Of a stretch of DNA of 64,000 nucleotides, positions 6,186-54,364 are shown piece after piece. The notes beneath the pieces are model-generated. The model ran no database searches and was not told where the DNA came from. It worked only from the letters and a program-made list of their open reading frames with translations. The DNA is taken from assembly GCA_040954595.2 (NCBI GenBank), contig CM082576.2, positions 3,694,760 through 3,758,759 on the forward strand. Reading direction: 5' to 3'. Origin of the DNA: Balanoglossus misakiensis (lineage: Eukaryota > Animalia > Hemichordata). Within the stretch, counting starts at the first letter, position 1. Each line of letters opens with the position of its first letter. The position numbers and the translations under genes were made by a program.

Positions 6186-11616
<5,431 letters not shown>

Positions 11617-18520: not shown

Positions 18521-19814
18521 TTAGTCCAGCGCCGTTGGTCCGCGATAAACTCTGGGTCGGAGGCACACGCATGCAACGGGCACCGCCTCATGGGTGAACT
18601 TGTACCTGAAGAGAACAAAGAAGCAAAATTAGGAAATACTGTATCTTAAAAGAGGTAACAAATCATGCTGCAAACGTCACTTCGGCCTACGAAATGTGAC
18701 AAAATGTTCTGTAGCACCAAGAGCCAAAGCAACATCGACAAAAGTGAATATCAGCCATTAAATGAAAGGAATTGTTGGAATCCGATATCAACGAAAGATG
18801 TCGCTCTACTTGTCGGAGAAGAGATGGTTGCAGAGCCCCAGTCGTGACAGTCGATTGACACTGTAGAAGTTAAGCGCTGCATAGGACTAATGAAATGTTC
18901 TCCTAAACGTACCTGTAATACCCGTCCTGATCGCAATCGGCGAGCCTCCTCAAAACGCGTACTCGGTAGGTGACTGGTTGGCAATAATTGTCGAGTGAGG
19001 GATTGTGCGATGTGACGTCGATGCAGTTTTGACAACGACACGCGGCAACAGCCATCACTCGTGGAAATCGATCGGGATCGCTGTCTAATTTGAAAGTCCA
19101 CGGGCAAAGTGACCTTTCGCTGATGTCTTCATCCAGAGTGTTGGCCAACTCCAGCGGACACGTAAGATTGGTCGTCACCTTTGCCGTCGGATAGGCGTCG
19201 ATGTTGCCGAATGCCGAATTATTTGACGACCCCGGGCTGTCGTTCAGCGGGTATACAAAAATCGGCGAGTTTTTGTAGCTACCGTCCTTCTGCATGAATT
19301 TGTTGTGGAGCAGTTCTTCCGTTGGCTCCAGACAAGGTGCGGCCCTGACTCCGTTCGCATTTTCGGTTTTCCCGCTCAAACTCTCTTCGGCGAAGCTGCC
19401 TGCCTCGAGTCTTCCCATTTGTGCCGGCTGTGGTCCCAAGTGTGATTGGATGATTCTGACCCCGTCCGAATTCGATCTCTCGTTTGGTAAGATTGGGGTC
19501 GCCCGTGCGCAGTTAAGATAAAACGAAACGAGAGCGATGGATACCAGCAAACGTGTCAACAGCTGAAAAGCGTGCAAAAAAGTCGGTTATTTATACGCAT
19601 TGCAACAAGTGCATGCTGTCTTCAAACTAATTGCGGAAAAACACGATTTACAAAATTCAGATCGGATTAAAGGTGTTTCATTTCAGAGATAGAAGAGGGG
19701 GGAGGGAGGGAGGGAGACACAGAGACATAAATACAAAGACTCTCATACATTTGTTGAGCTACAGTCTGAACGAAAATAATTCGTTGGTGCAGAGTTTATA
19801 CATACCTTATTCAT
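18521..19814 (-). CDS. IL17: Interleukin-17 family cytokine
   Basis: Exons 19814-19806 (MNK), 19562-18913, 18605-18521. Signal peptide LLTRLLVSIALVSFYLNCARA; IL-17 cystine-knot signature RSLCPW..DSDPDRFP..A.CRC..C..CQPV..VLRR..C..Y..VPVACVC. Confidence 0.95.
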
Positions 19815-28724: not shown

Positions 28725-30506
28725 GACACTGTATCTCACAGGCCGATTATTAAACCTATCAAACAGTACGTTGACTGTATTCCAGGTATGCCTCATTAAT
28801 CAAAACGTCCTAAGGTCTAAGGTGGTGGTAGTAGTGGTGGTATTATAATTAGTAGATTTCAAGAAAAAAAATATTCACGACGTCCAAACATTTTTTACCA
28901 AAATTGAAACGCTGGTCTATCTTATTATTACGAAGGAAACATAACAAGAAACGGCCAGATCAAGATGATCTCCTAGACTGAGCGCATTGCCTATGACCCT
29001 TCGAAGGCAGTGCACCGGACCGCCCAAGTCCAGTTGATCTCCTTGCCAAAACAGCACATCAGACCAAACACGATTACGTGTAAACACGAGTACTTTGTAC
29101 AATGCGCGAAGTGTTTTAGTTGTTTCATACACTTTCAGCTGTGTCGAAAGTAATGTAATACTTTACACTGACAGAATGCAATGGTCAATGGACACAGTTC
29201 TTCGACCGAGACAACCCAAGTGTAACAGGAGACTGGGAGACCCTAGACTCTTTGCAGGCAGCGTACCCGGGTCAAATATGTGACAACCCGTCAGCGATAT
29301 ACGCCGAAACTACCGACGGCGTGCCGGCCGAGCTGACGGGAGAAACGTTTGCAGCGTATGACGTACAAACTGGCTTCGTCTGCGTCAAGAATCAGCAACC
29401 TGACGGCGTCTGTCTGGACTACAGGGTAAAGTTCTGCTGTCGAGGTAAGGTGGAAGTTTCAAGTAACGGATTTCGAGACAAGATACAACGCGCATGCAAA
29501 ACTAATTATCGTTTACTCAGTGCAGAATACATAGCTCAAAACTAGCATCAGATAGCATCAAGAGCGCTAAACTTATAAGTACATTTGAATCTCAAATAAA
29601 GGCGGTAGCTGACCTTTGAGGAACATTTAAAAATTGGTAACCATACTCTATTATAGACAGTAGTAATAATTATGCGTGCTGGGTTCTTTGTGTGTTCTAC
29701 TATACTAGATTGCGATGGAATGATGACCCAATTTTTCGACCGAGACGACCCTTCTGGTTTTGCGGATGCAGAAACTCTGCAACATTTGAGGCCTGAGAAT
29801 CCGGGCAAAATTTGTGAAAAACCAACGGCGATTTATGCCGAGACGCTGGCTGGCGTACCGGCAGAATCAACTGGGGAGATATTTTCACCCTACAATCCAG
29901 TGAGTGGGTTTGGCTGTCATAACAGCCACCAACCCGATGGTCAGTGCATGGATTACAGAGTTCGCTTTTGTTGTCCAGGTAAGCATTAGCGTTATTCTGG
30001 TTACCGTGGAACAACAGCGCCATCTGTGTGGGAAACATGGAGAAAGTCGGTGTCTTGTCGGCCTGACAATATATGCCACATTATAGTGGACTTCTTGCCA
30101 AATCCGGCAACTTCGATTGTAACTTCTATTACCAATGGTGATCAGAATGCAGAGTAAGGCTAAACGGTGAAATACCTTTTCTTTTCTCACAGCTAAAAGC
30201 TGCACACACTGGACACCGTGGTATGACAGGGACAACCCGTCTGGCACCGGTGACTGGGAGACTCTCAGTGACCTGCGCGAGCAATATCCGAACCAAATTT
30301 GCCGAGACCCAACCGGACTACAGGTGCGCGTCAAGCTTACCGGACAGATCGTGTCTCCCAGCGACGGCAATTTCTATCGCTTCGATACACAGTCTGGTTT
30401 CGTCTGTCGCCTCGTCGACCAGAGCTGTAAGGACTATGAAGTCCGTTTCTGTTGTCCGCGGTTTACTTCTGGTGTCCTTTCTGAGGCGGACTACCTTAAA
30501 GTTTAG
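27062..30506 (+). CDS. Secreted protein with three mucin WxxW/CysD domains (CILP/mucin-like) and a short Cys-containing N-terminal module
   Basis: CCAAT at 26953 and TATATATA at 26985. Exons 27062-27132 (signal peptide), 28379-28477, 28742-28785, 29175-29444, 29709-29978, 30193-30506. Each domain reads WT.(W/F)(F/Y)DRD.PS..(G/A)D.ETL..L..P..IC..P..GF.C..C.DY.V(K/R)FCC (first W replaced by M in domain 2). Phases are consistent (2,2,1,1,1). Confidence 0.85.
28655..28721. repeat. (CT)n microsatellite
   Basis: Pure CT run. Confidence 0.99.
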
Positions 30507-30926
30507 ACAATGTCATGTATCAGTCCGCATGGACTTTCAGAAATAAAGTTACATGCTTTGTCGCCATACAGCATGCCTAATAATAAAATTAGATGATTGC
30601 ATGTACTACAGAAAATGGTCTGTTGTAAGTATTGTGTTATCCCATGGTCACTCCGACAAATCCAAACATGTCGTTCCATAAATGTGCACGCGAATACATA
30701 GATACATACATATACACCGTCATCCACTCGCACGACTCATTGACAAACACAAGCTCATACATCATGCCTAAACACCGACAAAATAGCTCCCGTACTTTCA
30801 TATAAATTTATTTCAGGTAAAAATAGCAAATAAATAAATAAATAATTAAATAAACAACCAAACAAAACATCAAGGAAAAAAACTCCAAAGCGAAAAAGCG
30901 GGTACAATCGTCCTCGGCTACTGGCG

Positions 30927-32002
30927 TCATAGGTAACACTGCGGGGGTCTGGTGGACTGAGACACATCTGCATAACAGCTGTCGTACCTCGGTAAACTAC
31001 ACGCGTGGCCAGAATGGAAAGGAAGCGGTGCGAACGGCGTGGTCTGTGGAATTTGAGAGAAGCCGATAAAGTCACATGACCAATTCAGATCGTAACAGGG
31101 TTCGGTGTGATGGCAGAATGGTGGTGGTGGCGATGAAACAGGTGTCTGGAACATGCAAGGGTTGCCGGGAAAAACAAAAGACGTCGGTGGTGATGGACTC
31201 GGCGAAGATGGCGTGGAAGGAACATCGGAGAGTGCGGAATCGCTGTCTGTGGAGGATAAGCATGATGAACTATCGGTGTAGAGGGGATGATGATGATGAT
31301 CGGAACCGTCTTTCTTCTCGACATACCCTCGTCTGGCACGCCGCCGTTGCCTAGTACGGTTGTTACGAAACCAGCACTGTAAAAAGAAAAGACAAAACGG
31401 AATTCGTGAATCTACTTGACAGATGAGAATTTATGATAGACAAAAACAGGACGTTTGATCTCGAGATGCAATTTAACAATGCATGGGGAAGGTCGAAACC
31501 ATTCACACACACGTCGATGTTTCGTGAATATGGGTTTCGTGTTAACCCAGACAAGATAGCTCACTGCACTTCTTTTCTTACCTGGACTTGTCTAGCCGTC
31601 AAATCAAGTAACTCAGCGGTCCTCTTGACTTGGGATGGGGTTGGATACCTAGTGTACTTTTTATAAACCTCCAACAGTGCAGTCACTTGAACTTTAGTGA
31701 ACTGCCGAGCGCTCGTCGGTTTGACCGCCGCAGGCCTGGTGTATCGAAGCTTGTTTGTCATCTTCATTCCACCGTCTGTAAAGAAATAAGATACGATTAT
31801 TGCAAACCACTTGGCATTCCTATCGATTTGCTTCTAAGTCGGAAAATAGTGGAGTAAAGTGAACTCAATAATAATGCATGTTCTTACCTTTCTTCGGTGA
31901 TGTTGCCGTGAGGTCGATCAGTACGGGACTTGTTGATCTTCTCGCTGTTGACAAGTCTAATGGACTCGGCAAGTCAGACGATGCGGATCTCTCTGGGATC
32001 AT
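30927..32002 (-). CDS. Divergent PRD-like homeobox gene 3
   Basis: Exons 32002-31888 (MIPERSASSDLPSPLDLS..PVLIDLT..KK), 31775-31582 (FTKVQVTALLEVYKKYTRYPTPSQVKRTAELLDLTARQVQ), 31376-30927 (CWFRNNRTRQRR...). Confidence 0.9.
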
Positions 32003-35000
32003 TCTGGATAAGCGCGGTGGAATAGTGTTGAAGTAACGATCGACGTTTATCGAATGTGGTGATCAGTCTCTGGTGCCGCATTTTAAAGGACTAGGCCTCC
32101 GTTCACGTGATCGTCAACTTTTGTTCAAAACTCTTGTAGTTTTCACAAAGCGTTGCCGAGACAACGGCGTCATTTACACGTCACGATTGTCGGACTGTTG
32201 GCCTTTCGGTCCCTTGTCCAGAAACTTGAACAGCGGCAAGTTCACAAAAGACACCTGAAACATTCACAGTTCGTTGGTCTTTGTCATGGCGGAAACCACG
32301 CGACAGAGTCAAATCTTTTATAAAAGACAATTCTGATAGTTTTTATTGTTTCGATAACATGTTGAATTCTTTCATTCGGTGATCTTTCATCTTAAAACTC
32401 AGTTGCCTGTTTGTGTTCGTTTCCATGGTTAAAACGTTTTAACGTAATCTATGCTCTCATCCAAACCATCATCATGATCATCATCATCATCATCATCACC
32501 GCCGCCATCGCCATCACTCAACTGTCGTCGTCCTCGTGTTAATAGCCAATTTTTAATAAACAAATGTGATCTTCTTCCGAATGTCATGACGTTTGATTAA
32601 CTTTTGGAAACATTTCTTGCTGTTTTTGGCTTTAAAACATCATGGTCCCGACCCTGCTTTGTACAGTAATTGCTTTGGTCCCGTTGTTTCAACTCGTAAT
32701 ACATGTATACTAGTATATGGAGCACGCAGTTTTTTCACTGATTTAGTAGCACTGTTTAGTGCTTTTAATTATTCTGAATTGGCTGTGGCAAAACGATAGT
32801 TCCTATGGATTTTGGACACGCTAGTTATGATCACACAAAAGAAAGTCGTTTCATCTTCTACGGTGTTTGTTCATTGCCATTCTCACAGTCGAACGTTTGA
32901 TAAGCTTGTCATGTCAACTATACCCCGACAAACATGTTAAAGTGTCGTTTGATCACGTGTAACGCGCCGTCCTGAACGCGAACATGCCGCCATGAACTCC
33001 CGAAGATGTGATCAAAGGCGCAATGCGAACTTGTCAATCACGTCTCTTTTGTTCAGACCCATTACATGTATTTACCGAAAATACCGACACGCGACGACCA
33101 TCTGACCAGGACAATAGAATAATGGGGAATACCCCAACCACATAGCTTATTCCTGATCACCGTAATTACCACAATCAATGCTGGCTTGTGATAACTTTTT
33201 ATACGACCTTATAAGTTTGTCTAAACTTGCCATAGATACTTTGAATATTTGTTTCATCACAAGGACATATCCAAAAGTCGCGTCAACTGAGAACACGGGT
33301 AATAGAATAGCTAATACAACTCATTATCCCAATTATGGGAGTCAGTTCGACTGTTTATTTTCGGGCAATCTATTGGTTGTCCTTTTCCAAAACATGCCAA
33401 CATTCTGTCTAAACAGCAGGCGGTCAAAACGAAAGTCTGTTATCTTCATTGTTCATCTCCATTCTCACACGTACTCCTGGTCGCTTCGTACAATCGAAAG
33501 TGTTTGATCTGTTGTACTCTACCCTGATAAACATGTCAATGTCCCGTCTCCTTTGTAACAAGTCGTTCCGCGCACGCGACTACGAACTCACGGCAAGGCG
33601 ATCAAAGGCGGTGCGTCCAACAATAGAACCTTGTCAATCACGTCGCTTTTTGTCCCAGTACCGAAAACACCGACACGTGATGAGCTAGTGTTCCAAAACT
33701 ATCCACTGTCCCGTTTTTTAAATCTATCAAGTAAACGACGTTATGTTCAGGATGTAGGGCCCATTATTCCAATCCACTTCGAAATACAAATCTGCAAAAT
33801 TTGCCAAAATACAAATCTTCCAAAAGAACCTGTCTCACATCAAAGGACAGAGAGTATCAAAGGCGGTACCAAAGTATTACCGCAACAATGCGCACACGCC
33901 CCGTCAAACAAAAGACACAACAGAGAAGTGTAAGTAAAAAATAAGGTGCCAACAAGTTTCTTTGATCAAAACTTGAAGCGACACCAGTGGCATTTGGTGG
34001 AAAGGCGGCGGAGAATAATTAAGTTTGTCAAACAATTAGGAGACCGAACGAACCCCAGGTGCGAGTTATCAAGTAATTGTCTTGGGGCGGGATGGTACAG
34101 TATTACCTCTACATGTAATTTCAAAACACATCCACGTGAACTTGGTAAAAAAAATGGACAAAAAAACCCAGAATGTGTACAAGAGAAGATTATAAAGTAA
34201 AGTCGGATGAGTCCTATCCTATCATTATCTAATAATATAAACATAAGCCAAAAGATTCGAAAGTTTGAAAGTTCATGAATGCGTCGCACATTTGGATGAA
34301 AACAAGACTAGGAGAAAATGTTTGATGAAGTGTGGACCATGATAACGATGATGGAATATAAGTACTAGAGTTCCCACGTGGTCAGACATTGTGGAAACAG
34401 ACCTTGTAGAATTCTGGAATCGAAAAAACTAACAGTCTCGCATGTTGACAGTATTCTACCGGGGATCAAAACAATTGAATCTGAATTAGCTTTCGTTTTC
34501 TCTGTTTTCAACGATTCGGCGTTTGCCGCAATGATCACGTCATGACCAAGGCCAACAAACTGTGAATGTTTCAGGTGTTTCTGGACAAGGGACCGAAAGG
34601 CCAACAACCCGACAATCGTGACGTGTAAATGACGCCGTTGTCTCGGCAACGCTTTGTTAAAACACCAAGAGTTTTGAACAAAAGTTGACGATCACGTGAA
34701 CGGAGGCCCAGTCCTTTAAATTGCGGCACCAGAGACTGGTCACCACATTCGATAAACGTCGATCGTTACTTCAACACTATTCCACCGCGCTTATCCAGAA
34801 TGATCCCAGAGAGATCCGCATCGTCTGACTTGCCGAGTCCATTAGACTTGTCAACAGCGAGAAGGTCAACAAGTCCCGTACTCATCGACCTCACGGCAAC
34901 ATCGCCGAAGAAAGGTAAGCACATGCGTTATTATTGAGTCCACTTTGCTTTTTACTCTACTATTTTTCAACTTAGAAGCAAATCGATAGGAATGCCAAGT

Positions 35001-36732: not shown

Positions 36733-37967
36733 CTAAGCTGTAGAAGTATTAGTAACACCGCTTCCATTTTGAATCATAATGACCACATAGGCGACGGTTG
36801 ACACCAGCGACGCCGCACTCAGGAAGCAAGCCGCAAACAACACCGCGTTGTTCCAGTACCGGAGAGTTTTCGTGTACACCAGGCGACCAAAGCAATTGCA
36901 CATCGCCACAGCCGTCTCTGGTCCATCGCCCTCGTCGATGTCGACGACCCCGATGAGATGAATCAAGAGCGCGAGGAGAATCTCCAAGAAGATGCAACCG
37001 GCCACCGCCGCAATTGTGAACGGCTCCAATCCTGTCACCACTTTCGCAGACGGGTACTGAATGACTATCAAGCTGATTAGCATACCCACGTGTGTGACGA
37101 GAAGACCGAAATCCAACACACCGATCCCGGCGGTCTTCACAGTCACGTAGCTGTTGAACTTCCCGTACTGTTTAAATGAAAGTAAAACTTAGGATTAGGA
37201 GGCTATAGAAGTTAGCTTCCCATGTTAGGACGACTATACGGAATTAGTTCCTCAGATTTTTTTCTCTCGAGAAAGCACAATAAACTCCACGAGTTTCACT
37301 GACCATTGAAATTGCATACTCATCATGCTGAATGCCAAATTATTGCGACAGAATAAAAGCGGGCAGAGAATACTGTTCTATGTTTATTCGCGTGGCAATG
37401 AAACGAGAAAAGACAAAGTTTCTTGTGTTAAGTTTGAAAGTAGAAACTGACAGTACCAAGAAAGTCTATCAAACAAGAAACCACATGGAAACAACTTCAA
37501 ACTTCAAAAAATGGGTAAATGGTGAGGTCAAGAAACATTGTTTTTCCCCCAGCTTAACTGTTGTTGCGAAAGATCCATTCGGGCAATACTTAGTAGTCAC
37601 TATAGTTATAAAAGCACTAATAAGTTTCGAAAGACTTTCCAACACGCACCTTCCTGGCTGGTTCACCTTCGCATTGCCATTCAATCTCAGGACTTAACTT
37701 TTCAATCGGAAAAGCCCCCGTGGAATCTGCAGCAACCATGTCGTTTGTTTGGCCAGACTTGAGAAGTATGGTACTGGGGTCAAGACAAAACAGTCTGCCC
37801 ATGACGGAGCGGGTGAGACGGTCCTTTGACAGCCATATTCTGCCCTTCATAGCGTATGGCCCTGACGCCATGGTCCCGTTGACGAACACGCCGCTCTGTC
37901 GGCCGTCGCCGCCGCTGAACGCCACTAAGGGATCCGACGGAGGTGCTTGTTCGTGTTGGTCCGCCAT
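36733..37967 (-). CDS. Ninjurin-like protein 1 with an additional N-terminal globular domain
   Basis: Exons 37967-37650 and 37167-36733. NSYVTVKTAGIGVLDFGLL aligns to the ninjurin motif NHYASKKSAAESMLDIALL; it is followed by hydrophobic segments, with WNN before the last helix. Confidence 0.8.
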
Positions 37968-39053: not shown

Positions 39054-42000
39054 TCAACTGTGTGTGGTGTCGGTGAAATCAAAACTCTCGGTGTCCAGCT
39101 GTTCGACCTCTTCAGCCAGACTCGTCTCTCCGATAACTTTGAGGGTGTTGACCATCTTGTCAACTTGCTGCTTGACAAAAGCGGGTGTTTGCCTCTGATC
39201 CTTCCATTTTTGCAACAGCTGCAAGAGCTTGTCTTTCTGCGGGACGCTTTCTTTTTGTCGATGGCCCTTACTTTCTCGCGGGGGATTCCCAGGTGCGGGG
39301 CCAGCTCCTTCCATCTTGCCGGGTCAAGTTTGGAGTTGATTATCTCCAGCGCTGAGGTCATAGCCCTTCCTGCAAGACATAACGAGAACAGAACTCGGTT
39401 GGACGGTTGTGTTGGACGTAGTATTGAAACGACCCACACGCGACACGTGCAATCCTACGCCTTCACATGCATACAAAATCAAAGATGGCTTCCTTTCCAA
39501 AGTGAGGCTGTCCCCTCCCAATGCTTCTGGGTGAGGGCGCAACACGTATAAGTTCAACCTGTCTCTACTTTCCAGATCCATTCTTTTGTCACAAAAGTTG
39601 CTGTTTGCTAAAATAATCATGTAACAATAAAATCGCACGTCGTTAAACAGAAAAGAGTACTGAAGTACTGTTATATATAAATGAAACATTTCTGCTGACA
39701 TTTTAATTCTCCGAAGAGAAAAAAAACTTTCACCAATGAAATGTCATACTCACGTGCAACAACATGAGCGGCTATCTCTGTAGAGAAGGAAAAGTGAAAT
39801 TAGCAATTAATTTATTAGCCCTTTCCTTGAAATGGTTCTTGATAGAAATCTTACGTAAACATTAGCTTTAAATCACAACAATTCATGTGATGACAAATTA
39901 TCGTACATGTATTTGTTACATGTAATGTTACACTTTGTTATCGTGTTCACAGTGGCCTGTGAACACATTACCTATGCATAAAGCAGTAAACCAGACGCAC
40001 CTTCTTTTCTGTGCTTGCACTCTTCGAAAATCGCCTTCATGTCGTCTGAATCCCTGGGAAATGGTTTCCAGTTATGTTGCACAGCATTTAACTGATGTCT
40101 GCACCCGACATCCTCCGGGCATATCACCTTGAAGGCGATGGAGTAGGTCAGGGAAGGCCAAGTACTTCGCATGCAGTCCCTGAGTTTTTGGACGAACTGT
40201 TCGTTGAGGACGCGATAGGTGCTCTCCATGTCAACCGACATGGTGGTCTTGATCGACAGTGACTTGGACGCCCCCTTGTGTTCAGAGACCACCATACTGA
40301 CACCGCTGAACGAGGCAAGGAAGCCATCTTTCCATTCCTCTCGCACGTTTGCGTGCACGGTGCAGACGAGCACACTCATGAGCCTGGACGGACAGAACCA
40401 CGGGAATTCCACCCGGGCTTCGAACAGCGGTACGAATTTCACGGGGACGCTCATCCCCTTCTGGAGGTATCCTGGGAACCGCAGCACCCTCGGTGACCGC
40501 TCGTCGGCGTTTATGCCTTCAGAGTGGAGAAAAGAACCTTCGTTTCCCTCGGGATCCACTTCATAGCAGATCTTGAACCCGGTCAGCACATCAAACACCA
40601 ACGACATCACATCAGGGTCCAGTTCTAAATGGCCCAGGACGCACTCTCGGATCACGTCTTCCGACAAGACCGCCTTGCTCTCAAACGTCTCATTCACAAT
40701 GGCGAACTTTGTACCTCGATAGCCCGGCGGAAAGCTGTTCGCGTCCAGGAAGTCTGAATGGCCCTTCTCAAAGATCGCCTGGAGGATATCTTTCAGGAAA
40801 TCCAAGTTATGGAAGACATAGTCTCTAAGGCTTGGTATCCAGTCGTAGTATTGCACGACACCGATTCGTTTCATGTATGCAATTACACCTTGAATGTCTC
40901 CCTCCTGTAGGCCAACACTCCTACCAATACCCTCAAATTCTGAAAGAGTGAGCCTTACTCTCTTGAGTTGATCATCATCATCCCTTGTTTCTAGCAGCTC
41001 TCTCTCAAGCTCCAACATCTTTTGTATGTTGGGCGTGCTCCCGTTCCTATCCAGAGATGTGGTGCTGGCGGGAAGGAGGCGTTTGTCCTTGTCCAGTAAC
41101 AGCTGACAAATCTTGTCCTTGCAAACCTTCATACCGTTCTTGGCCTTCCCAACAACAATCACTTCAGTTGGCGACGAAAATAGAAGCAGGTCTTTATGCT
41201 GACGCTGCTTCAGTTCACTGAATAACTTCTGTAGCTCTTTACTTATGTTGCTGCAGGTCTCCCTTACCTTCTCTGCGTCTAGTTTATGAGCATGCGTTCC
41301 GACTATGGTTACTATTATTTCCCCTCCAATGGAAACCACGACATCCTTGATCCACATTGCAATGCACGCCTGGAAACCTTCCGACGGATACCGCTGCAAG
41401 TTGACTGTGATGATGTATAGAGAATTTGCTGTGTAAAACAGTGGGTACACAGATTGCACACTGCCGCTTCCGCCGCAGTATGTTAGTTCCGCGTCGATGT
41501 TGTCCGTAACCGGCCATATCGCTCGGTCCATGAAAGCAACCGTGCCGCTTGATGTGTCAGATTCCCCGCCAGTGTTCATGGCTGCCTTAACACCATTTCC
41601 TGGATTTCTACCATTTGTGGTCACTGGTATGTCTTGCTGTGTGTTGCCAGATGCTGGTTCTTCATCTTTCCTTGAGGTTCCCTCACCACCGCTAACGACA
41701 ATCCTGTCTGAACTGGTAGTCACTTGATCAGGCTGTCCCTTTTCTCCTTGCCCTCCGGGATCTTCATTGTTATTGACCTCTGACCCACGCCCATCTTCAC
41801 TTCCAAGCCTCCCTGATTGCCTGTCACGCGATTTTTTGAGCCTTTTCATAAGCGTGGCCTTGCCAGCGCCTTTGGAACCAAGAAGAAATATTTTGCCCCT
41901 TGCAATGCTGCTAAGATGAGGCGATTCTCTCAACTTCCGCCTCATCTCTCCCAACTTTGTCGTCTTGACTGCATCAGGGACATCTCTCAGCAGGTTCCCG

Positions 42001-43874
42001 CCAATTTCTACCTCTGTCCCTATTTTCTCCTCCAGTTTGACAAGTGCACTTGGTAAGAAGTATAACTGATTGTCAGAGACATTCACCCTTTTCAGACTCT
42101 TGACATTTTCAATAGCCTTCGGCACAGAACGCAAACAGTTGCCACTCACATCCAGTGTCTGCAGGTTTTGCTTGCCTTTGCATGCAGTTTTGTCTGTGCG
42201 AACGGTGTGAATTTGGTTTCTGCTCACATTAAGCTCTTGAAGAGTCGGGTGCTGAAATACATGCGCAGGCACGACGATCAGCTGGTTTCCGTCAAGTTTC
42301 AGACTTTGCAACTTCTTCAGCTCCTTAATTTGTTCCGGTATTACTTTCACATTGTTGCCGCCCATGTCGAGATCCACCAGATGCTCACAAGAAAAACAAA
42401 CAGGTGGGATGTGTACGATGTTATTGTCTTTCAAGTTCACATCTTTAAGTTTCATGCTGTCCACTGGGCCAATGTTGTCATCACCACCACCATCATCATC
42501 ACTATCATTGACACCGCTCTTAACACGGACACCGTCATCTGAACCAGCATCTTCTCGTGTGTCCTTTATTTTATTTCCAGACAAGTTGATGTGTTCCAAA
42601 GTTTTCATTCTGGAAAGACGCTGTGGGACACATTCCAGCCTGTTCCTTGCCAAGTTCAGCGTCTTCAGTTTTTCCAGATGTATGTTTTCAGGAATGTCTG
42701 ATATGCTGTTCCCCTCTAAGTCGAGCTCTTCCAGATACCTTGCGCTGAACAGGCTGTCGGGTAGATTATTGATGTGATTACTCTTGAGGGAAAGCTTCTT
42801 CAGCTTCTTCATTTTACCGAAGTCGATGTGGGTCAGATCTGTTAGATCATTAAAATCAAGGTGCAGGGACTCCAAGCTGGGTTGTTCCACCTGCTTCGGT
42901 AGATGGCCTATTTTGTTGTTCTTGGCAGAAAGGTGACAGAGCGCCATTTTGTCGAACGGGACGTCTGCAATGTCACTTATCGCGTTTCGATCAAGATGAA
43001 AATCCCTGAGTTTGTTGAGACCTCTGAATGGAGCGGGACTAAGGTTATCTATTGCGTTGTTTGTCAGTATGCAGGTGCTGAGACAGGCGAGTTTGCTGAA
43101 CGCGTCAGGCACGTCCCTGATGTCATTGCCTTCGACGTTGAGGAAAACCAGCCGAGTTAGCACCGCCACAGTATGTAAGATTCCCTTGCCTTCAGGGGGC
43201 ACATCAACGTCGAGATGGTTATTTCTCAGGTCCAAGTGGCGCAGAGCTTTGAGTCGAGTGACTATGCTCTCTGTGATACCAACGGTCAGGACAGGCTTAG
43301 TTGTTAAATCTGCACAGAGTTTGAGTGTGTGCACGAAGATGGGTAGTTGTGCCACCGTGTTTTGCTCGACTGACACCACTCCATTTCGACTCCAGTCTAG
43401 AACCTGCAACTTTCTCAACTTGGAGATATCGTGAGGGATAAATGATAGCCTGTTGTCTGCCGCCAGAAATTTTGCGAGCTTCGGCAACTTGAAGACATCT
43501 CCCCAGAGTTTGGAGAATTTGTTTTTGCTGATGTCTAGATGCTGCAACTTTCTCGCGATTCCGATGCCAGGAACGCTTGTCAAACTGTTGTCAGATAGAT
43601 CGATGTAAGTAAGGTTTGGCAACTCAAAGAACTCGTATGAAATCCACGTTAAGCGATTCCTGCTCAAGTTCACATATCGCAATCCTTTGAGTTCGACGAT
43701 GTCTTCTTTTATGTCCGCGATGTAGTTATTGGACAAATTCAAAGTCTTGATGTCGGTCCTGCAGTCATCGATCAAATGATCGGGGACTGCTCTTAGTCTT
43801 TTATTTGTTGCTACATATTCTGGCTTTGGGCTAGCAATGTCAGTATTGTTGAATTTTGAGGCTCCTGATCCCAT
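39054..43874 (-). CDS. Roco protein 1: N-myristoylation motif, LRR, Roc-like, COR, death domain (1-nt frameshift inside the DD exon)
   Basis: Exon 43874-40001 (MGSGASK, many LxxLxLSxNxL repeats, P-loop LGSKGAGKAT, VGTH, COR-like HNLDFLKDIL..F), micro-exon 39777-39754, DD exon 39369-39054 (WKELAPHLGIP / LLQKWK..LKVIG..LAEEV in two frames). Confidence 0.85.
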
Positions 43875-45476
43875 AATATGTTTTTCGTGTCCTTTTCACC
43901 AAGCGGACGACTCGAGTGGAACTTCTAAAGTACAAACAATCACAAATCCCTTTGTATCATGGTTGCACGTAACATGGGACTGCTATTTCTGTCCTGTCCA
44001 CCAGGATAGGCATGTCAGGATCTAAGGTCCTTGTTCCTAAAGGTAAGGAGAACGAGTTCAAAATTTCAAATTATGTCTAATCCAAATGTTCAGCAAATGT
44101 TGCGTTCGGCGCATTCAAATAGTGGACTATCTTCCCTCCCTACCATCGATCGCCGCCCTATAAACGACTCCAATGCGTTCACGCATTCTCTTATACATTT
44201 ATTAGGTTGTACAAAGTTTTATCATAGTTTTGACCTTCTTGATTTATATATTTACGATGGTAGAAATGACAGGTGGTATGTGTCGAGCTTTTGAGTTCAT
44301 GCCAAGAATTTAAGGGTGTGCTGAGGTACGTTATGGACGTTATGGGAGTTGCAATACAGCAAAACACCGAGGTCTACGGCAATGCTGTGCAAATAGACTG
44401 CAAGTGGATACTCAACGTTTCGCTTCAATTAGGGACTAGGTTAGATTACTGGCCAAATTACAACAAAGCGAGCACACGCGGCTGTCAACGGTAAATTTTG
44501 TATGAGATATAGGAAGCAAATGACAGTACTGACCGAACCGTCGCAGATTGCGGGTATTATCAAGCCTCTATCAGGTTATGGCGAACAAGTGTTGAGATCC
44601 ACGCACCGTTCTGTTCATAGCCACAACCCGAACCTCTGTTGGAAATACCCTGTCGTGTTTTCTTTGTGACGATGTCCAGATCCGGGTCTGTCTGTCTACT
44701 GCACGTCAACACCGGGCTTGTGAGAGAGTCTATAGTCAACACCCCTACTCAAACCACGGGCCCAAAGTGCGTTGTTTCTTTGACAGGTTCCCCTTCAAAC
44801 GAGTTAATCTGTAACAAAAGGCGAGCTGCGCAGACGCGTACAGGTGAATGGCAATTTAATGATCTCACCACCAACTAAAAACATGGCTCAAAGTTCTGGC
44901 GCAGAATCGCCGTCGCATTGAGTGCGAAACGTTGCAATTTCCTTTATAGATTGTCGCATTGGGATCATGTAGGAGTTTCCTGTAATAATGGATGCTAACG
45001 TGGAATCTGCAAATGTTTACTTTTGTGCAGACAGACGGAAGAAAGGACAGACAGACAGACAGACAGACAGACTTTAATTACTGGTAAAAGTGATGAAAAA
45101 AACCAAACATGATTCTTCCTAATATAAGCTTGGTTATAATATAAGTGTGTGAATAACTGAAGCTCGAGTACAATGCGGAGAGAACCGTTACCACCAGGAT
45201 GTTGGTGAGATTGTTACTTGGTTGACGTCAGGCCACAAATGCGGGTTGTTTTTCTCCGCGACCGCCACTTTCATACCTGCTCAGCCGATACATGTTTCTG
45301 CATATTATCAGAGAATTTGAAATATTGTGAATATTTGGCAACGTTTTACTGATTCACTTTTATTCTAAAGTGTAAGTCTAGAAGATTCCAATCTTCCTGG
45401 TACCTTGTTTCTGGAAGATATGCTATTATACTAGTCCGAGGGAACAACTGTAGACATTTGTCAGTTTTTGGCTTGA

Positions 45477-46533
45477 CTAAGAGGCTGGCGCGATACGAAT
45501 TACAAATACCACAAACAAAACTCCGGTAACGAGGGTTGTTCCGGCCAAGGTGTATGTCAAGAACGTAATCGTGTTGTTGCGTCGGCGTACAGTTTCCTTG
45601 CAAATCCTGCCGCAACCACTGAACAGGGGAACCGGTGTTTCCTGTCCTTCGCCGTCGTCGATGTCAACAATACCCACTATGTAGAGGAGGTAGGCAAGTA
45701 CGAGCTCTAACAAGATGCAGAGGCAGGAGAAAGCTATGGTAACTGGCCAGATGTCGAACGACTTGTAGGACGACGACGCTGTCCCGAAGACCACCAGGGA
45801 CACCAACAAACAGACGTGGGACGCGAACAGCCCGAAGTTCATGATACTTAAGGCGACTGTTTTCGAAGTGGCGTAGGCGCTGAATTCACCATACTGTAAG
45901 ACAGATCGAAGAATAATACGTGAGTTGTGATATTTGTTGTCAGAAATTAAAAGAGGGATCGGAACGTGTAGGGGTTTGGGCAGTACTTTTTACTTTTTTT
46001 AAAATACCGAAGGCCTCCCAAACGCACTTTTAAGTCACAATTCCGTATAGGTCAGTAATGTGTGTACCATTATCGATCAGTGTAGGTTTAATAAAAATAC
46101 TTGTCACGTTCCACCCGTCCCGCCTGTTCTAAAAACAATAATTATCACACACCTTGCGTGCAGGTTCCCCTTCACAAATCCAGTCTACTGATGGATCCAA
46201 TTTCTCCAAGGAAAACCCACCGCCGCTTTCTGGACCGACGAACGTGTTGTCGACACTTGACTTCAAGACGATCGTCTTCGGATCGAGACAAAACAGTTTG
46301 GCGAGAACGGAGCGTGTTAAGCGGGCTTCCGAAAGCCAAACCCGACCCCTGACTGTGTAAGCCCCGGCACCCATCATTCCGGCGATCGTCACACCATGAA
46401 TGTTCGGGTTCGCTTGGTGCTGTCGGCCTGACGACTCCTCGGCCATTTCTTGCAGCTCGCTCCGGTTCCGTGAGCCTCCCCGCGCTTTTCTCTTCTGGTC
46501 ACGTTCTGGTGAAACGCTTGCTGTCGCAGCCAT
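45477..46533 (-). CDS. Ninjurin-like protein 2 with N-terminal globular domain
   Basis: Exons 46533-46153 and 45893-45477; SAYATSKTVALSIMNFGLF motif, hydrophobic helices, RNN. Confidence 0.8.
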
Positions 46534-47499: not shown

Positions 47500-48646
47500 T
47501 CAGAGAGATGCTTCGAGTTGAACTATAATTATCATGGTAACAAAGGTTATTCCGACCAAGACGGCTGCCATGACAGTGATCGTGTGGTTACGTCGGCGTA
47601 CAGTTTCCTTTAAAATTCCGTCATAGCAAATAAACAGGGGAACCGGTGTTTCCTGTCCTTCGCCGTCGTCGATGTCAACAATACCCACTATGTAGAGGAG
47701 GTAGGCAAGTACGAGCTCTAACAAGATGCAGACACATGCAAAAGAAAGAGCGACTTCCCAAAGACCGGCCGACGTACTGTTCAAGAACAGGTCCTGGTTT
47801 ACCACGAGGGCCACTAACATACAGACGTGGGACACAAACAGACCAAAGTCCATAATACCGATGGCGACTGTTTTCGAGGTAGCGTAGGCGTTCACGTCAC
47901 CATACTGAAAGAGAAATAAAACAAACTATAGATACCGTGTACGCGGATATCAATATTTGAAACCGTTCGGTACACGACACGAGGGTCAACCCATACTCTA
48001 GAACTTGAAGTAAGCCAGTTTCGGATTCCGTGTGATGATCATAAAACTGTGTCCAAACTTGAAAATATCAGTTTGCGTTATGGCTATAAAATGTAATTAT
48101 TGTATTACAGTGCTCTAACGTTCTCACTTGAATTGGAATTTACACATTCTTGATGTAAATATTAATAGTAGATTACTTTCCAATGAGTATGCCAGACGTT
48201 GGTAATTTCTTACAAGTTTAATGCAGAGATAAGGCCTCATATACTCCGACAAGGTCACACACCTTTCGAGCGGGCTCTCCTTCGCAAATCCAGTCAACCT
48301 CTGGATCTAGTCTGTCCAGGGAAAATCTGCCGCCGTTTTCTGGTCCTATCTTAGTATTGTCTTTGCTTGATTTCAAAATTATCGTTTTGGGATCGAGGCA
48401 AAAAAGCTTGGAGAGAACGGAGCGTGTTAATCGGGATTCTGAAAGCCATATTCGCCCGTTGACTTTGTATGCTCCGGTACCCATCGTTCCGGTGACGGTC
48501 ACACCATTGAAGTTCGGCGCCGGTTGGTGTTGTCGGCTCGATGCATCTGCGTCTCTTTCTTCCGAGCCTAGTGCGCTCGATGTCCGCGACACCTCTTCTG
48601 GGGATGGTGGATCACGCTCAGGCGAAACGCGAGCAGTCGCTGCCAT
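47500..48646 (-). CDS. Ninjurin-like protein 3 with N-terminal globular domain
   Basis: Exons 48646-48263 and 47904-47500; VNAYATSKTVAIGIMDFGLF is the closest match to the ninjurin N-terminal helix motif. Confidence 0.83.
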
Positions 48647-49125: not shown

Positions 49126-52100
49126 TCAGCACTGGAGCTCAGATAGCGTATCAGCCAAAGCTTGCTCATTGATAACCCTCAGACTATTGATCAGAATTTG
49201 GAATTGCTGCATCATGACGCCAGGAGTGTGGAGTTTGTCTTTCCATCGGTCCACGAGTTCTCTCAGCTTATCCTTTTCACATCCGCCGTCCCGTCTGTCG
49301 ATTACGGTTACCGTCCTTCCCGGTATTCCGAGCTGTAAGGCGAGTTCCTTCCACTTTCCGGGTTCCAACTTGGAACAGACCAGATCGCAAGCTTCATTCA
49401 CCATCCCCCCTACGGAAATTCAAACATTGATTCTTCAGTATGAGTAAACTGGCAAGAGACAGCTCCAAATATAGTTGTAGACTTTACAAAGCAGTTTTGC
49501 TTGTCAACACCATTCCAAAAATGACGTTTTGAAGAAAGACAGTTGGCGTTGTCTCTCAATTTGGAAAAAAAATGAACAGAGGAAAAATTAAAAAACAATG
49601 CATAGAAACGGATGCTAGTAGTAAAATACTTACTTGTAACAGTGTGATCGGCTGCTTCTGATGAAGTAATCAAACAATTAATACAAGTTAGTAAAGCAGG
49701 TTTTCACACAATTTTCAAACAGTCAATCTATGCGCTACCTACTCGTCTTTCATCGTGAGTAATTATTGGCTATGTTATCTACAAACTATTCTGACACATC
49801 TGACAAGAGATTCTTGTTTTGCTTTGAAGAATATAGTGTCTGAATAATGTCCGTCAGAAAACTACGAAATGCCTGGTCGATAATGATATAAAATGTTTGT
49901 TTGCTTGCTTGTGCGTTTGCGTACCTTGCTGATACTGGCATTGGTTTAGTTCTTCCAGAACTTTCGAAGAATCCTTTGGAAACGGAATCCGTGAATGATG
50001 CATTGCGCTGTTCGGATGCTCACAGCCCACTCCCTCTGGGCATATCACTCTCAGCTTTGTGAGATAAGAAACGCTTGGCCACTTTCTCTTCATGATAGCT
50101 CGCATTCTCTGAAGCAAACCAGAGTTTAAGACATTGAAGACGTGTTCAGTGTTCGTCAGCATTTCAGCCCGTAACTCGTCGCCAGGAACGTCCTCTGCTC
50201 GTTGGCGCACTCTCTTGTCCATCGCCGTTTCCACAACCAGCGTCGATGTCTTCGAAAGACCTTTCTGTTCCGTGATGGTCATGGTGACTCCGTTGAAGAC
50301 ACCGTAGAAGCCATCTTCCCACGCTGCCTTGATGTTACTGTTGTACGCGCAGGCCAGGGTGTTCAACATCGCCGACGAACGCCACGACTGAAGTTCAATA
50401 CCCGTTTCCAGCACGGGTTTGAACTTCCGCGGAATGCGAGGCACTTTACTCAAGAAGGCAGGAAACCTCAGAACTCTCGTTGGAGGCTTGTCCGTGGCCA
50501 TTTCGAGGGAAGAAAGCGATTCTTCTCCAGAATGTACTTGATAGCACACGCCGAAACCAATCAGTACATCCAGTACAAGTGACAGGGCCTCGGTACTCAC
50601 ATCCAAACTGCTGAGAACATATTCTCTGATCACATCGGCCGACACGACGGCCTTACTTTTGAAAGTCTTCCTGAGGCGAGATAAACCACCATCATCATTG
50701 ACTGTCGATGAGCGGATCTTGCTCCCAAGGAAGTTTTCTTTCTCTCTACCAAACATTTCCCCGAGAACATCTTTCAGGAAGTCCAGGTTATGAAAGATAT
50801 GACCTTTAAGGTTAGGTATCTTTGCGTAGTGTTGCAATACACCGGCTCGCTTCAAGTACACCACTATGCTTTCTGCGTCCTCTTTCAAATAGCCGACTTG
50901 CTGCAGAAGGTCTTCGAATTCCAACAGGGTGATGGCAACTTTTTGCTGGTGGACATCTTTCAACTTTTCACGGAGAAGTTCTTCACTTGGTTGTGAATTC
51001 ACCATCTCTGCTTGTTTGTCTTGGCTGCAAACATCCGTTGAATTGGTGGGAAGTAGATGATTGTGGCCACTTCTCAGAAGTTCGACCATTTTGTGTCTGC
51101 ATAGGTCGATCTGTTGTTCACTCGCTCCCATCACCAAAACGTCCGGGAAAGAGGAAAGAACCGGCGAGTCTGTCTGTTTCCTTTGCTGCCAGTCCGTCAA
51201 ACACTTCTTCAGCTCGTTCCCGATGCTTTTGCGGACTTCCTCGACCTCGGTCAGCTGTAAACTATCGCCGCATGTACCAACAACCACGAACGTCACGTCT
51301 GCTCCAACACTGTCCAGGACGCCATCGATGAACACTTTGATGCAGTCTTTGAAGCGCTCATCTGGGGAGATGATGTACTGGGCAAGGTTAACGATGATGG
51401 CATACAGCGTAGAGTCGGTGTAGAACAGTGGACAGGCCAAATGCGCCATGCCTCGTCCTCCGCAGTAGACAAACTCAATGTCCAGGTCATGATCGAGTGG
51501 TAAGTTGACGCAGTCCATAAAACTCAGGGGTTTTGCGTCTTCTTTGTCTGCATCGTTTGTTTCTGAAGGCTCATCTTCTGGTGCACTGACTGGACGTTGG
51601 TCTGATCGTAGGGAACCAGCTGGACGCGATTCGTGACCATCTACAATCATCATGGCTTGTAAGTTTCGGATAGTCGTGGCTTTGCCAGCGCCATTGGCAC
51701 CGAGAATGAATATGCGACCCTTTTTCTTTGGTATCTCTGTTGCAGCGGGGTCTTCCGCTTGTTCCTCTTCAGGGGAAACACTGTCTTCGCCGTCTTCAGT
51801 TACCTCTACCGACGTGGTAGACGTCCCAGAGCTGAGACTTCCATCTTCAAAGGAGTTTCCTTCCGAGTTTACACCTTGAGAGGAGTCTTCATCTTCAAAA
51901 GGGTTTCCTTCTAAGTTAACATCCTTCAACGTCTTCATTTCCGACAGACACTCCGGAACACGTTTCAAACGATTACTTCCTAAGTTCAGTTTCTCAAGAT
52001 GTGGAAAATAAAATCCAGATGGAAGGTCGTGTATCTGATTGCATTCTACGTCAAACGTCTCCAGGCAACGTGCTTTGCAGATAGCACTGGGAATTTCTGT

Positions 52101-53189
52101 TAGGCAGTTCTTCTTCAAGGAGAGAGACTTCAGCATCTTCATCTTGTGAAAGCTTACATGGATTACCTCAGTCAATCTATTGCAATCCAAATGGAGTGTC
52201 TCTAAAGTCGGCTGCGCGATCTGTTCAGGAAGACGACGTATCATATTGTCATTCATAGATAGAACAGCTAGCCTCATGTCGTCGAATGGAATCGCGTCTA
52301 TATCCTGTAGTTCGTTTTTGTCGATTCTGAAGATCTCCAGTCTTCTTAAACCCTCAAGGGAAGCCGCAGGCAACAGTTGTATGCTGTTGTTGCTCAGAAT
52401 GCATGTTGTCAGAGAGGTAAGGTTGCTGAACGTGCCTGGCAGAGCCTTGATGCAATTTCCTTCAACGTTTAGATACACCAGGCCGGTCAGCAATGCCACG
52501 GCGTGCAGGATCCCTTTGTCTTCATCTGTAATGTTTTTGTCGAGAAGATTGTTGCTGAGGTCCAAATGTTCTAAGGACTTTAGACCTTCACTCAGACTTG
52601 AGGGGAGGATTGGGGCCAATAGGGTAGATCCTTTCGTTCCGAGTTTCAGTGTAATAAGCGATGGGGGCAACACAAGTTCGCGAACGGTGCCAAGTGGATT
52701 CCTTCTCAAGTCGAGGCTCTTTAACGACTCCAACCGGGCAAATTCATTTGGGAGGGAAGACAGCTTGTTGTCGGCTGCAAGCAGATGTTGTAGGCGACGG
52801 AGTTTGAAAAATCCCGCGTGCAGTTTTCGAAACTTGTTCTTGCTGATGTCCAAGTGCAGCAACTTCTTGGCTGACTCTAGTCCGGGTAAACCTGTCAAGT
52901 TGTTGCCAGACATGTTGGCGTGCGTGAGTTGAGGCAATTCGAAGAACTGATAGGCCACAAGACTCAAACGGTTGTGGCTGACATCAACGTGTCTCAGTCC
53001 GACGAGCAGACTGATTTCGTCCGTTATTTCTTCGATGAAGTTTGTGGAAAGACTGAGGGACTTTATGTCAGTTCTCGCCTCCTCAATCAGCTCATCGGGC
53101 ATTGCTACAAGTCTTCTGCCCTTCTTTTCATAGACAGGTGATGGCATCGTTCCCACATCGCCGCCGACTTTTGATAATCTGATTCCCAT
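49126..53189 (-). CDS. Roco protein 2: N-myristoylation motif, LRR, Roc-like, COR, death domain
   Basis: Exon 53189-49925 (MGIRLSK, LRRs, ILGANGAGKAT, VGTCGD, HNLDFLKDVL), 24-nt micro-exon 49657-49634, DD exon 49409-49126 (WKELALQLGIP..LVDRWK..LRVINEQALADTL). Frame is intact. Confidence 0.88.
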
Positions 53190-54364
53190 ATTGAAGTATC
53201 AGCGTGCCTGGCTGGATATCGGAAGAACACTTTCGGGTTATCTACCCTGAAATGAACAAGAATTAAGTCTATATGTCGAGAGCAAACTTCTATCTTTGTT
53301 TTATGGGATTATAAAATGTATAAGAATCTCATCTGAGCAGAATGTACTCCCCTTCCACAGTATTTGTCATTCTGGTTTGTTCACACAATGGAGCAGTTAC
53401 GACTTTCTCCTCATGCATATAAAGCAAATGTTGCTCGCGCCTTACATATTCTAACCGTCTGCAATGATCCGACCAACCAGTTGATTTTCAAATGGCACAA
53501 TGTTATAACAGGTCATCAATGTTTCTCGTCAACAGGGGTATTCAGACCTCTTCTTGATCTCGTTTACTTTAGATTTGAACATTTCGTAGCAACGTAGATA
53601 TGAAATAGATAGCCTCTAGGGCTACTGCAGAATGCAATCCATTATTATACGATCTTGCAAAAGACGTCCCGGCATGTCTCTGTCAAAGGCCAGCTTAAAC
53701 AAGGGGACGAAGTGATGGCACCTAACTAGATAATCACAGCACCTAGACTTCCAAATTAATTACATTTTTTCCGCACCGGTGGTTTGACTGTACATTTATA
53801 TTTTAAATATTTCCGTTGATCATAACTGAACGATATCTGCGGCATGATGAATACACCCTATACCTAAACCATTGGTATCTCTGCACGTCACGTTAAAGAG
53901 ATGATTGGGTCGCTGATGGATCAAAGAACAAAGAGTTGCCAATCATTCAGAAGCTGGCTGCAAATCTCGAAAAAAACATCGCACCCGCATTTGCCAAGTC
54001 GTAGACGTTTGGAGACTAAATCACGTCATACCTTTGTCCTATGGGTTATACTAGATCGATAATGTCCGAGTAAGCTGGCACGGGCGCCGATATTTCTGCT
54101 ACCCGCACTCCCCCAACAGAAATGTGCCAATGATTATGTTCCCTGGCAGTAACATGCCCCGTTTTAATACAACGGACCAAAGTCCAGACTACAGCCTTCG
54201 CACGCGTCTTTAGGATCAAATACTGGATGTTGAATTTCATGCCACACAGACATCATGGGTGAATGTCCCCACATAGATAACACCTGTTGGCCATGCGTTG
54301 AAGATCGTAGTCACGTGATAATCGCATCGATCTTTTTTTTCGAACCGCGGATGGCAATATTTGT

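What the first reader, a model, noticed from the sequence alone, without database searches (positions are those of the whole stretch)
41230..41900. Both Roc domains look like pseudo-GTPases with the same substitutions
Seen: Walker A reads GSKGAGKAT (Roco1, ~41853-41879) and GANGAGKAT (Roco2, ~51675-51701), with Ala at the GK[S/T] position. The G3 DxxG motif (WDFAG in typical Roc domains) reads YCGG in both (~41469-41480, ~51456-51467). G4 reads GTHAH and GTCGD. Known: the Walker A Ser/Thr and the G3 Asp coordinate Mg2+. Inference: because both old paralogs share the changes, a catalytically altered scaffold or switch is more likely than decay.
Basis: partly seen in the sequence, partly recalled or inferred. 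Interest (0 to 1): 0.7.

Follow-up and report, generated by a model that had tools for sequence, protein, structure and literature searches.

The report
Acorn-worm Roco proteins, GTP switch lost
Two neighbouring LRRK2-like genes of what is likely an acorn worm lack both magnesium-binding residues of their GTP switch, a change shared with their counterparts in two other acorn-worm species but not in a third, so they likely work as membrane-anchored, death-domain signalling scaffolds rather than as GTPases.

Summary
Both genes encode LRR-Roc-COR-Death (Roco) proteins whose closest relatives are from enteropneust hemichordates. The Walker A Ser/Thr is Ala and the DxxG Asp is Tyr in both, at the positions of LRRK2 T1348 and the DFAG Asp. 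Counterparts in Ptychodera (2) and Glandiceps (1) carry GK[A/V] and YC[G/S]G; both Saccoglossus paralogs and 12 of 12 amphioxus relatives are canonical. Trees give one origin, before the duplication, so the paralogs share one event, not two. Fold, switch II and COR are conserved and synonymous change exceeds non-synonymous, which argues against decay. G2 Thr is absent in all 7 family members; G4 drifts. All 7 carry an N-terminal myristoylation-type motif, and ninjurin-like genes are interleaved. Best reading: a pseudoGTPase scaffold without a Mg-GTP cycle; weak Mg-free GDP binding is the main rival. No biochemistry exists. Dead Roc domains were predicted before in Entamoeba. This scan holds no look-alike DNA, only an unchecked note on a diatom Roco with an altered P-loop.

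The parts
40001..43874 (-). Roco1 exon 1: MGSGASK start, LRRs, Roc, COR
   Evidence: ORF; Pfam; GT donor at 40000
41853..41879 (-). Roco1 G1/Walker A GSKGAGKAT; Ala codon 41858-41856 at the Mg-binding Ser/Thr position
41541..41819 (-). Roco1 switch I replaced by a ~90-residue poorly conserved insertion, predicted disordered; no conserved G2 Thr
   Evidence: pLDDT <50 for model residues 49-138; 16-30% identity to orthologs
41469..41480 (-). Roco1 G3 YCGG (Tyr in place of the DxxG Asp)
41286..41300 (-). Roco1 G4 GTHAH (guanine-binding Asp replaced by His)
39754..39777 (-). Roco1 exon 2 (24 nt, inferred)
   Evidence: AG/GT ends and match to P. flava protein
39054..39369 (-). Roco1 exon 3, Death domain; one-base frameshift near 39253 in the window and in run X1, absent in run X2
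49925..53189 (-). Roco2 exon 1: MGIRLSK start, LRRs (shorter array), Roc, COR
51675..51701 (-). Roco2 G1 GANGAGKAT; Ala codon 51680-51678
51456..51467 (-). Roco2 G3 YCGG
51264..51278 (-). Roco2 G4 GTCGD (Asp kept)
49634..49657 (-). Roco2 exon 2 (24 nt, inferred)
49126..49409 (-). Roco2 exon 3, intact Death domain; spliced product 1190 aa
   Evidence: Pfam Death E 8e-5, above cut-off
47500..48646 (-). Ninjurin-like gene A (inferred exons 48646-48263, 47904-47500), between the Roco genes
   Evidence: Pfam Ninjurin E 3.2e-5, below curated cut-off; NINJ2 8szb E 0.006
45477..46533 (-). Ninjurin-like gene B (inferred exons 46533-46153, 45893-45477)
   Evidence: Pfam Ninjurin E 0.0026, below cut-off; 59% identical to A
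36733..37967 (-). Ninjurin-like gene C (inferred exons 37967-37650, 37167-36733), downstream of Roco1
   Evidence: no Pfam hit of its own; 36% identical to A; shared exon-1 domain

Best explanation
These are two intact-fold LRR-Roc-COR-Death proteins whose Roc domain lacks the G1 Ser/Thr, the G2 Thr and the G3 Asp, and which therefore likely cannot bind Mg-GTP or cycle, likely acting instead as membrane-anchored signalling scaffolds held in one state. Shown: the substitutions, their register, their presence in 5 of 5 proteins of one branch and absence in the Saccoglossus pair, conservation of switch II and COR, an N-terminal MGxxxS[K/R] in 7 of 7 family members, C-terminal Death domains, and interleaved ninjurin-like genes. 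Inferred from mutants of LRRK2 and small GTPases: little or no GTP binding (pseudoGTPase class i). Inferred from Chlorobium Roco, where the nucleotide-free form is a COR-mediated dimer: the protein would sit at the membrane as a standing dimer that holds its Death domains close, with control moved from GTP to LRR ligand binding or partners. Inferred from architecture and neighbours only: an innate-immune or cell-death role. History (inferred): G2 and G5 eroded first in the enteropneust subfamily; G1 Ser/Thr and G3 Asp were then lost once on the Ptychoderidae+Spengelidae branch, before the Roco1/Roco2 duplication; G4 has drifted since.
For: Motif table: G1 position 8 is A,A,A,A,V and G3 is Tyr in 5 of 5; S/T and Asp in 14 of 14 others. 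G4 Asp 3 of 5 against 14 of 14. With motif columns dropped the Saccoglossus pair splits from the five at 100/100, and an older duplication pairing each Saccoglossus gene with one paralog is rejected, p-AU 0.0002; with an amphioxus outgroup one change suffices. Fold: pLDDT 77 and 79; best matches LRRK1/LRRK2/CtRoco, Foldseek E 4e-16, Z 23.5, rmsd 3.7 over 429 residues. 8 of 16 columns from YC.G to PLFY are invariant in the five against 23 of 159 in the Roc core (p 0.0004, window chosen after seeing the data). Paralog Roc pS 0.70, pN 0.42; allele differences 4 non-synonymous to 7 synonymous over 518 codons, pN/pS 0.17, p 0.005. LRRK2 T1348N and T1348P lose GTP binding (PMC12183101; PMC3976973); D57Y Cdc42 is used as a dominant negative (PMC8209548). 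Nucleotide-free CtRoco is dimeric, GTP-bound mainly monomeric; the DxxG region is the most conserved part of Roco proteins and contacts COR (PMC6337361). N-terminal motif 7 of 7 against 0 of 14 amphioxus rows.
Against: No biochemical data. G1 Gly-x4-Gly-Lys and the G3 Gly are invariant in all 7 and G4 Asp survives in 3 of 5, as expected if some nucleotide or phosphate still binds; an HRAS S17A/D57A double mutant kept GDP through a simulation (PMC4182752). Only 7 family members from 4 species were found. The root between Saccoglossus and the five has only 77/82 support. A single invariant column is not rare (14% of Roc-core columns), so selection on the Tyr itself is suggested, not shown. Synonymous sites between paralogs are near saturation, so dN/dS (about 0.3) is rough. 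Roco1 has a Death-exon frameshift in the window's allele, which shows that this copy tolerates damage in at least one haplotype. LRRK2 nucleotide-free mutants lose stability and dimerisation (PMC3976973), unlike CtRoco, so the locked-dimer step may not carry over.
Confidence: 0.58

Rival explanations
1. Class ii pseudoGTPase: the pocket still binds GDP (or another nucleotide) without magnesium, and the bound ligand stabilises one conformation or acts as a slow sensor, without hydrolysis.
For: P-loop glycines and Lys invariant in 7 of 7; G4 Asp in 3 of 5; HRAS S17A/D57A kept GDP in simulation (PMC4182752); human MFHAS1 binds GTP with no hydrolysis detected (PMC3995007), so binding without turnover has family precedent.
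Against: [quoted passage not shown]
Confidence: 0.27
2. The Roc domain is a relaxed structural spacer: the substitutions are passive leftovers after GTP control became dispensable, and neither Tyr nor Ala matters; the genes work through LRR, COR and Death alone.
For: Roc core identity is somewhat below COR-A (60% against 78% to P. flava; 51% against 62% to Glandiceps); G1, G4 and switch I vary among the five; each key change needs only one base.
Against: Tyr is fixed in 5 of 5 over about 3 changes per column of tree length; switch II is the most conserved Roc segment. This rival differs from the best explanation only in whether the locked state is selected.
Confidence: 0.08
3. An active but atypical GTPase that uses relocated residues or a partner supplied in trans (class iii).
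For: G2 and G4-G5 are known to vary in active Roco proteins (PMC6337361); RGK proteins diverge in G motifs and stay active (PMC5593906).
Against: All three Mg ligands are missing and no conserved substitute Ser/Thr/Asp was found in the alignment.
Confidence: 0.04
4. Gene decay (pseudogenes).
For: Frameshift in the Roco1 Death exon in the window and run X1.
Against: Open frames of 1290+ and 1088+ codons, canonical splice sites, an intact frame in run X2, full-length orthologs in two other species, pN/pS 0.17.
Confidence: 0.03

Closest known systems
MFHAS1/MASL1 and invertebrate MFHAS1-like Roco proteins (kinase-less LRR-Roc-COR)
   Same: LRR-Roc-COR order and fold; databases label the orthologs 'MFHAS1 homolog'; nearest outside relatives are amphioxus MFHAS1-like proteins.
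   Different: G1 Ser/Thr, G2 Thr and G3 Asp are missing; human MFHAS1 binds GTP (PMC3995007); these add an MGxxxS[K/R] start and a Death domain; only 21-28% identity to the amphioxus proteins, so orthology to MFHAS1 is not shown.
Saccoglossus kowalevskii XP_006820306 and XP_006817044
   Same: Same subfamily (44% and 37% to Roco1), same N-terminal motif, no G2 Thr; XP_006820306 has the Death domain.
   Different: Canonical GKS/GKT, DCSG and G4 Asp; they form their own pair.
Entamoeba IMLRK Roco proteins (Kerk and Moorhead 2010, PMC2927912)
   Same: Roc domains predicted from sequence to lack GTPase activity.
   Different: Amoebozoan myotubularin-LRR-Roco-kinase proteins with poor conservation and deletions; here two clean, fixed point changes in an animal, kinase-less family with a canonical sister group.
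[quoted passage not shown]
   Same: G-domain fold with degraded G motifs; scaffold role proposed.
   Different: Those were tested biochemically; none in the passages read is a Roc-COR protein; the P-loop Gly/Lys frame is still intact here.

Membership tests
Roco proteins | Roc G-domain fold followed directly by COR | tested here: met
   Pfam Roc E 2e-4 and COR-A E 2e-3/3e-4, all below curated cut-offs; Roco1 model matches LRRK1/2 and CtRoco over Roc and COR, Z 20-23.5; Roco2 model has the same element order but was not searched
Roco proteins | N-terminal LRR array (group without kinase) | tested here: met
   Pfam LRR_8 E 2e-66 and 1e-44
Active Roc GTPase | G1 GxxxxGK[S/T] | tested here: not met
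   GKA in both
Active Roc GTPase | G2 Thr | tested here: not met
   LRRK2/amphioxus Thr column holds V, L, I, F, L in the five, V and G in Saccoglossus; Roco1 alone has a Thr one place off
Active Roc GTPase | G3 DxxG | tested here: not met
   YCGG in both
Active Roc GTPase | G4 with guanine-binding Asp | tested here: inconclusive
   Roco2 GTCGD met, Roco1 GTHAH not met
Active Roc GTPase | GTP binding and hydrolysis; nucleotide-dependent oligomer change | not testable with these tools
   needs assays
PseudoGTPase (classes of PMC5593906) | G-domain fold with one or more degraded G motifs | tested here: met
PseudoGTPase (classes of PMC5593906) | Class i (no binding) versus ii (binding, no hydrolysis) versus iii | not testable with these tools
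   needs assays
MFHAS1 orthology group | Clade with vertebrate MFHAS1 | not tested
   no vertebrate MFHAS1 sequence was returned by any search, so none was in the trees

The most novel reading that the evidence does not exclude
An animal immune or death receptor that has dropped nucleotide gating altogether: a myristoylated LRR-pseudoRoc-COR-Death dimer, frozen by natural equivalents of the Ras S17A and D57Y changes, that signals to the ninjurin-like membrane proteins encoded between and beside it, a gene linkage kept since the Saccoglossus split (~373 Ma).
Probability: 0.12. Interest if true: 0.82.

Novelty: new variant of a known kind. Interest (0 to 1): 0.56.

Why it matters
How the nucleotide state of Roc controls Roco proteins such as LRRK2 is still debated, and engineered nucleotide-free LRRK2 mutants are unstable and hard to interpret (PMC3976973). 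This family offers naturally stable-looking Roc-COR units without the Mg ligands, plus a sister pair in Saccoglossus that keeps two of them, so the gain or loss of the switch can be tested by two point changes in either direction. It would also add an animal Roco to the short list of pseudoGTPases, with the order of motif loss readable on a tree.

Tried and rejected
No whole genome is held, so no genome-wide Roco census. COR1:COR2 complex prediction gave no verdict (score 0.00, alignments not used). No RNA holder was listed, so expression is untested. A profile search with the 7 full-length proteins returned 71 hits, 2 of them known family members and 69 others matched over 8-53% of the query with LRR annotations; I took none as a new member and did not align them. 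Word-based searches missed known members (one search found 1, one search found 2), so absence there is weak; the exhaustive HMMER search gave 4 strong clusters, all hemichordate, then 10 weak ones, all Branchiostoma. A PDB profile search with full-length rows was swamped by LRRs. The ESM Atlas did not answer for the Roc domain and gave only weak, uninformative hits for the exon-1 domain of the ninjurin-like genes. My first guess of amphioxus as source was dropped. Rejected: assembly error at the motifs; misregister of YCGG; convergence in two old paralogs. Rows dropped from the Roc-COR tree for run time: 5 of 12 amphioxus rows; motif, insert and linker columns were dropped.

Full report
OBSERVATION. 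The window holds two long minus-strand frames, 39972-43895 and 49854-53198, with LRR, weak Roc and weak COR-A Pfam matches. A Roc profile built from the two window domains and four stored relatives aligns to LRRK2 Roc at E 2e-19, with GNTGSGKTT on G1, WDFAG on [T/V]YCGG and GTHLD on G4. So the Ala sits at the T1348 position and the Tyr at the DFAG Asp. AlphaFold2 models of both Roc-COR units (mean pLDDT 77 and 79) put the Tyr at the end of beta3 and the Ala at the start of alpha1. The Roco1 model matches LRRK2, LRRK1 and Chlorobium Roco best (Foldseek E 4e-16; Z 23.5, rmsd 3.7 over 429 residues). Contigs of two runs of one coded sample confirm the Roco1 motif bases; one may be the source of the window.

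GENE ANATOMY. Both genes have the same inferred three-exon plan: a large first exon, a 24-base exon and a Death-domain exon, with GT-AG introns. Roco2 splices to 1190 residues with a Pfam Death match above cut-off. The Roco1 Death exon has a one-base frameshift near 39253 in the window and in X1, while X2 has the extra base. Both proteins start MGxxxS[K/R], as do all five relatives (one at an internal Met); 0 of 14 amphioxus rows do. I recall this as the N-myristoylation consensus; no call tested it.

RELATIVES. An exhaustive HMMER search of 1.84 billion cluster representatives with Roco2 Roc-COR gave 14 hits: 4 strong (E 1e-44 or better) and 10 weak. With the family has 7 members: the window pair, two in Ptychodera flava (consecutive accessions, same longest contig, so probably adjacent), one in Glandiceps talaboti (Spengelidae) and two in Saccoglossus kowalevskii; the weak hits are all Branchiostoma. 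The window is therefore likely an enteropneust, nearest P. flava in both paralogs. Motifs: P. flava Roco1 GKAN/YCGG/GTHAD; Glandiceps GKAT/YCSG/GTHTD; P. flava Roco2 GKVT/YCGG/GTHTG; Saccoglossus GKST/DCSG/GTHGD and GKTL/DCSG/GTHCD; 12 of 12 amphioxus rows GKTS/D[F/V]GG with G2 RTH and G4 Asp. The G2 Thr column is not Thr in any of the 7 hemichordate proteins, switch I carries a variable insertion predicted to be disordered, and the amphioxus G5 SAE is not recognisable.

HISTORY. In a Roc-COR tree with 7 of the 12 amphioxus rows as outgroup, the five altered proteins form one side of a branch (77/82, not starred) and one change explains the states. In a full-length tree of the seven with motif columns removed, the Saccoglossus pair separates at 100/100, and pairing each Saccoglossus gene with one paralog is rejected (p-AU 0.0002, LG+G4). 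[quoted passage not shown] The simplest reading is one loss of both Mg ligands after that split and before the Roco1/Roco2 duplication. The root is the weak point: if it lay inside the five, two parallel losses or a regain would be needed.

SELECTION. The Roc core is 60% identical to the P. flava ortholog, against 64-72% for LRRs and 67-78% for COR; the insertion is 30%. Invariant in the five are G673, G678, K679, Y806, C807, G809, G811, P818-Y821, G866 and T867; 23 of 159 Roc-core columns are invariant, 8 of them in the 16 columns of switch II (p 0.0004, chosen after the fact). Between paralogs the Roc domain has pS 0.70 and pN 0.42, near saturation. The X2 allele differs at 11 coding sites in 518 covered codons, 7 silent and 4 not (pN/pS 0.17, p 0.005). 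This argues against decay. Against my reading: one invariant column has a 14% base rate, and G4 and the rest of G1 vary.

MECHANISM. LRRK2 T1348N and T1348P lose GTP binding, and T1348 is modelled as the Mg ligand (PMC12183101, first half of the text; PMC3976973, passages). D57Y Cdc42, the same Asp-to-Tyr change, is used as a dominant negative (PMC8209548, passages). The region round DxxG is the most conserved part of Roco proteins and packs on COR; CtRoco is dimeric when nucleotide-free and mainly monomeric with GTP (PMC6337361, passages). From these I infer that the acorn-worm proteins have no Mg-GTP cycle, keep switch II for its COR contact, and stand at the membrane as scaffolds, probably dimers, that present Death domains. 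The dimer step is an analogy only. The main rival is Mg-free GDP binding: the P-loop Gly/Lys frame is invariant, an HRAS S17A/D57A mutant kept GDP in a simulation though such mutants dissociate faster (PMC4182752, passages), and MFHAS1 binds GTP without detectable hydrolysis (PMC3995007, passages). An immune or death role rests on architecture (LRR-AP-GTPase-COR-effector systems, PMC8195603, passages; PMC4104024, passages) and on neighbours: three ninjurin-like genes lie between and beside the Roco genes (matches below Pfam's cut-off), and their exon-1 domain appears at the front of a Saccoglossus Roco gene model. NINJ1 is required for membrane rupture in lytic death (PMC13503662, search listing only). 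Proximity shows no shared pathway.

WHAT IS KNOWN. PseudoGTPase classes are defined in PMC5593906 (passages) and extended in PMC12490416 (passages); no Roc domain appears in the passages I saw. Entamoeba IMLRK Roc domains were predicted from sequence to lack GTPase activity (PMC2927912, passages), so a dead Roc is not a new idea. PMC11378527 (passages) discusses Roco pseudogenes, not pseudoenzymes; PMC2119986 (abstract passage) added nothing. Searches 'roco + pseudogtpase' (0 papers), and searches showed no report of this hemichordate family; the library lacks most subscription papers, and I read no supplements, where alignments of invertebrate Roco motifs might already show it. This scan's notes hold no look-alike DNA; one unchecked note describes a diatom Roco with a conserved P-loop change, another a placozoan Roco/death-fold cluster.

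VERDICT. Real, conserved and apparently undescribed: a lineage-restricted pseudo-Roc Roco subfamily with a canonical sister pair. It is a member of the Roco family by fold and architecture, fails three of the motifs of an active Roc GTPase, and works most likely as a class i pseudoGTPase scaffold (0.58), with class ii as the main rival (0.27). New variant of a known kind; interest 0.56.

Noticed in passing
window 48646-47500, 46533-45477, 37967-36733 (- strand): Three two-exon ninjurin-like genes interleaved with the Roco genes. Their first exon encodes an unannotated ~90-residue domain that is 41-44% identical to the first 100 residues of the Saccoglossus Roco gene model XP_006817044, which suggests a neighbour fused into that model (or a real fusion) and old linkage.
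   Followed up: partly
window 43874-43854 and 53189-53169: All 7 family members have MGxxxS[K/R] at the start (internal Met104 in XP_006817044); 0 of 14 amphioxus rows do. That this is the N-myristoylation consensus is recalled, not from a call.
   Followed up: partly
window 39253: One-base frameshift in the Roco1 Death exon in the window and in run X1; run X2 of the same coded sample has one more base and an intact frame, so it looks like an allele difference.
   Followed up: partly
window 9225-10316 and 14607-15698 (+): Two ZU5-domain exons, 40% identical over 305 residues.
   Followed up: no
window 18903-19586 (-): Interleukin-17 domain exon, E 1e-15; another immune-type gene in the neighbourhood.
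   Followed up: no
window 29159-30506 (+): Repeated WxxW mucin-type exons (Pfam E 2e-22 for the first).
   Followed up: no
window 30917-32225 and 35866-34577: 1.3-kb inverted duplication, 89% identical, each copy with a similar 165-167-codon frame.
   Followed up: no
window 59118-61463 (-): 781-codon low-complexity frame with no Pfam hit; an acidic W-DDD-F segment recalls ETAA1-like proteins from memory only.
   Followed up: no
window 53189-49925: Roco2 and its P. flava ortholog lack the second LRR block (about 150 residues) that Roco1 has before Roc.
   Followed up: no
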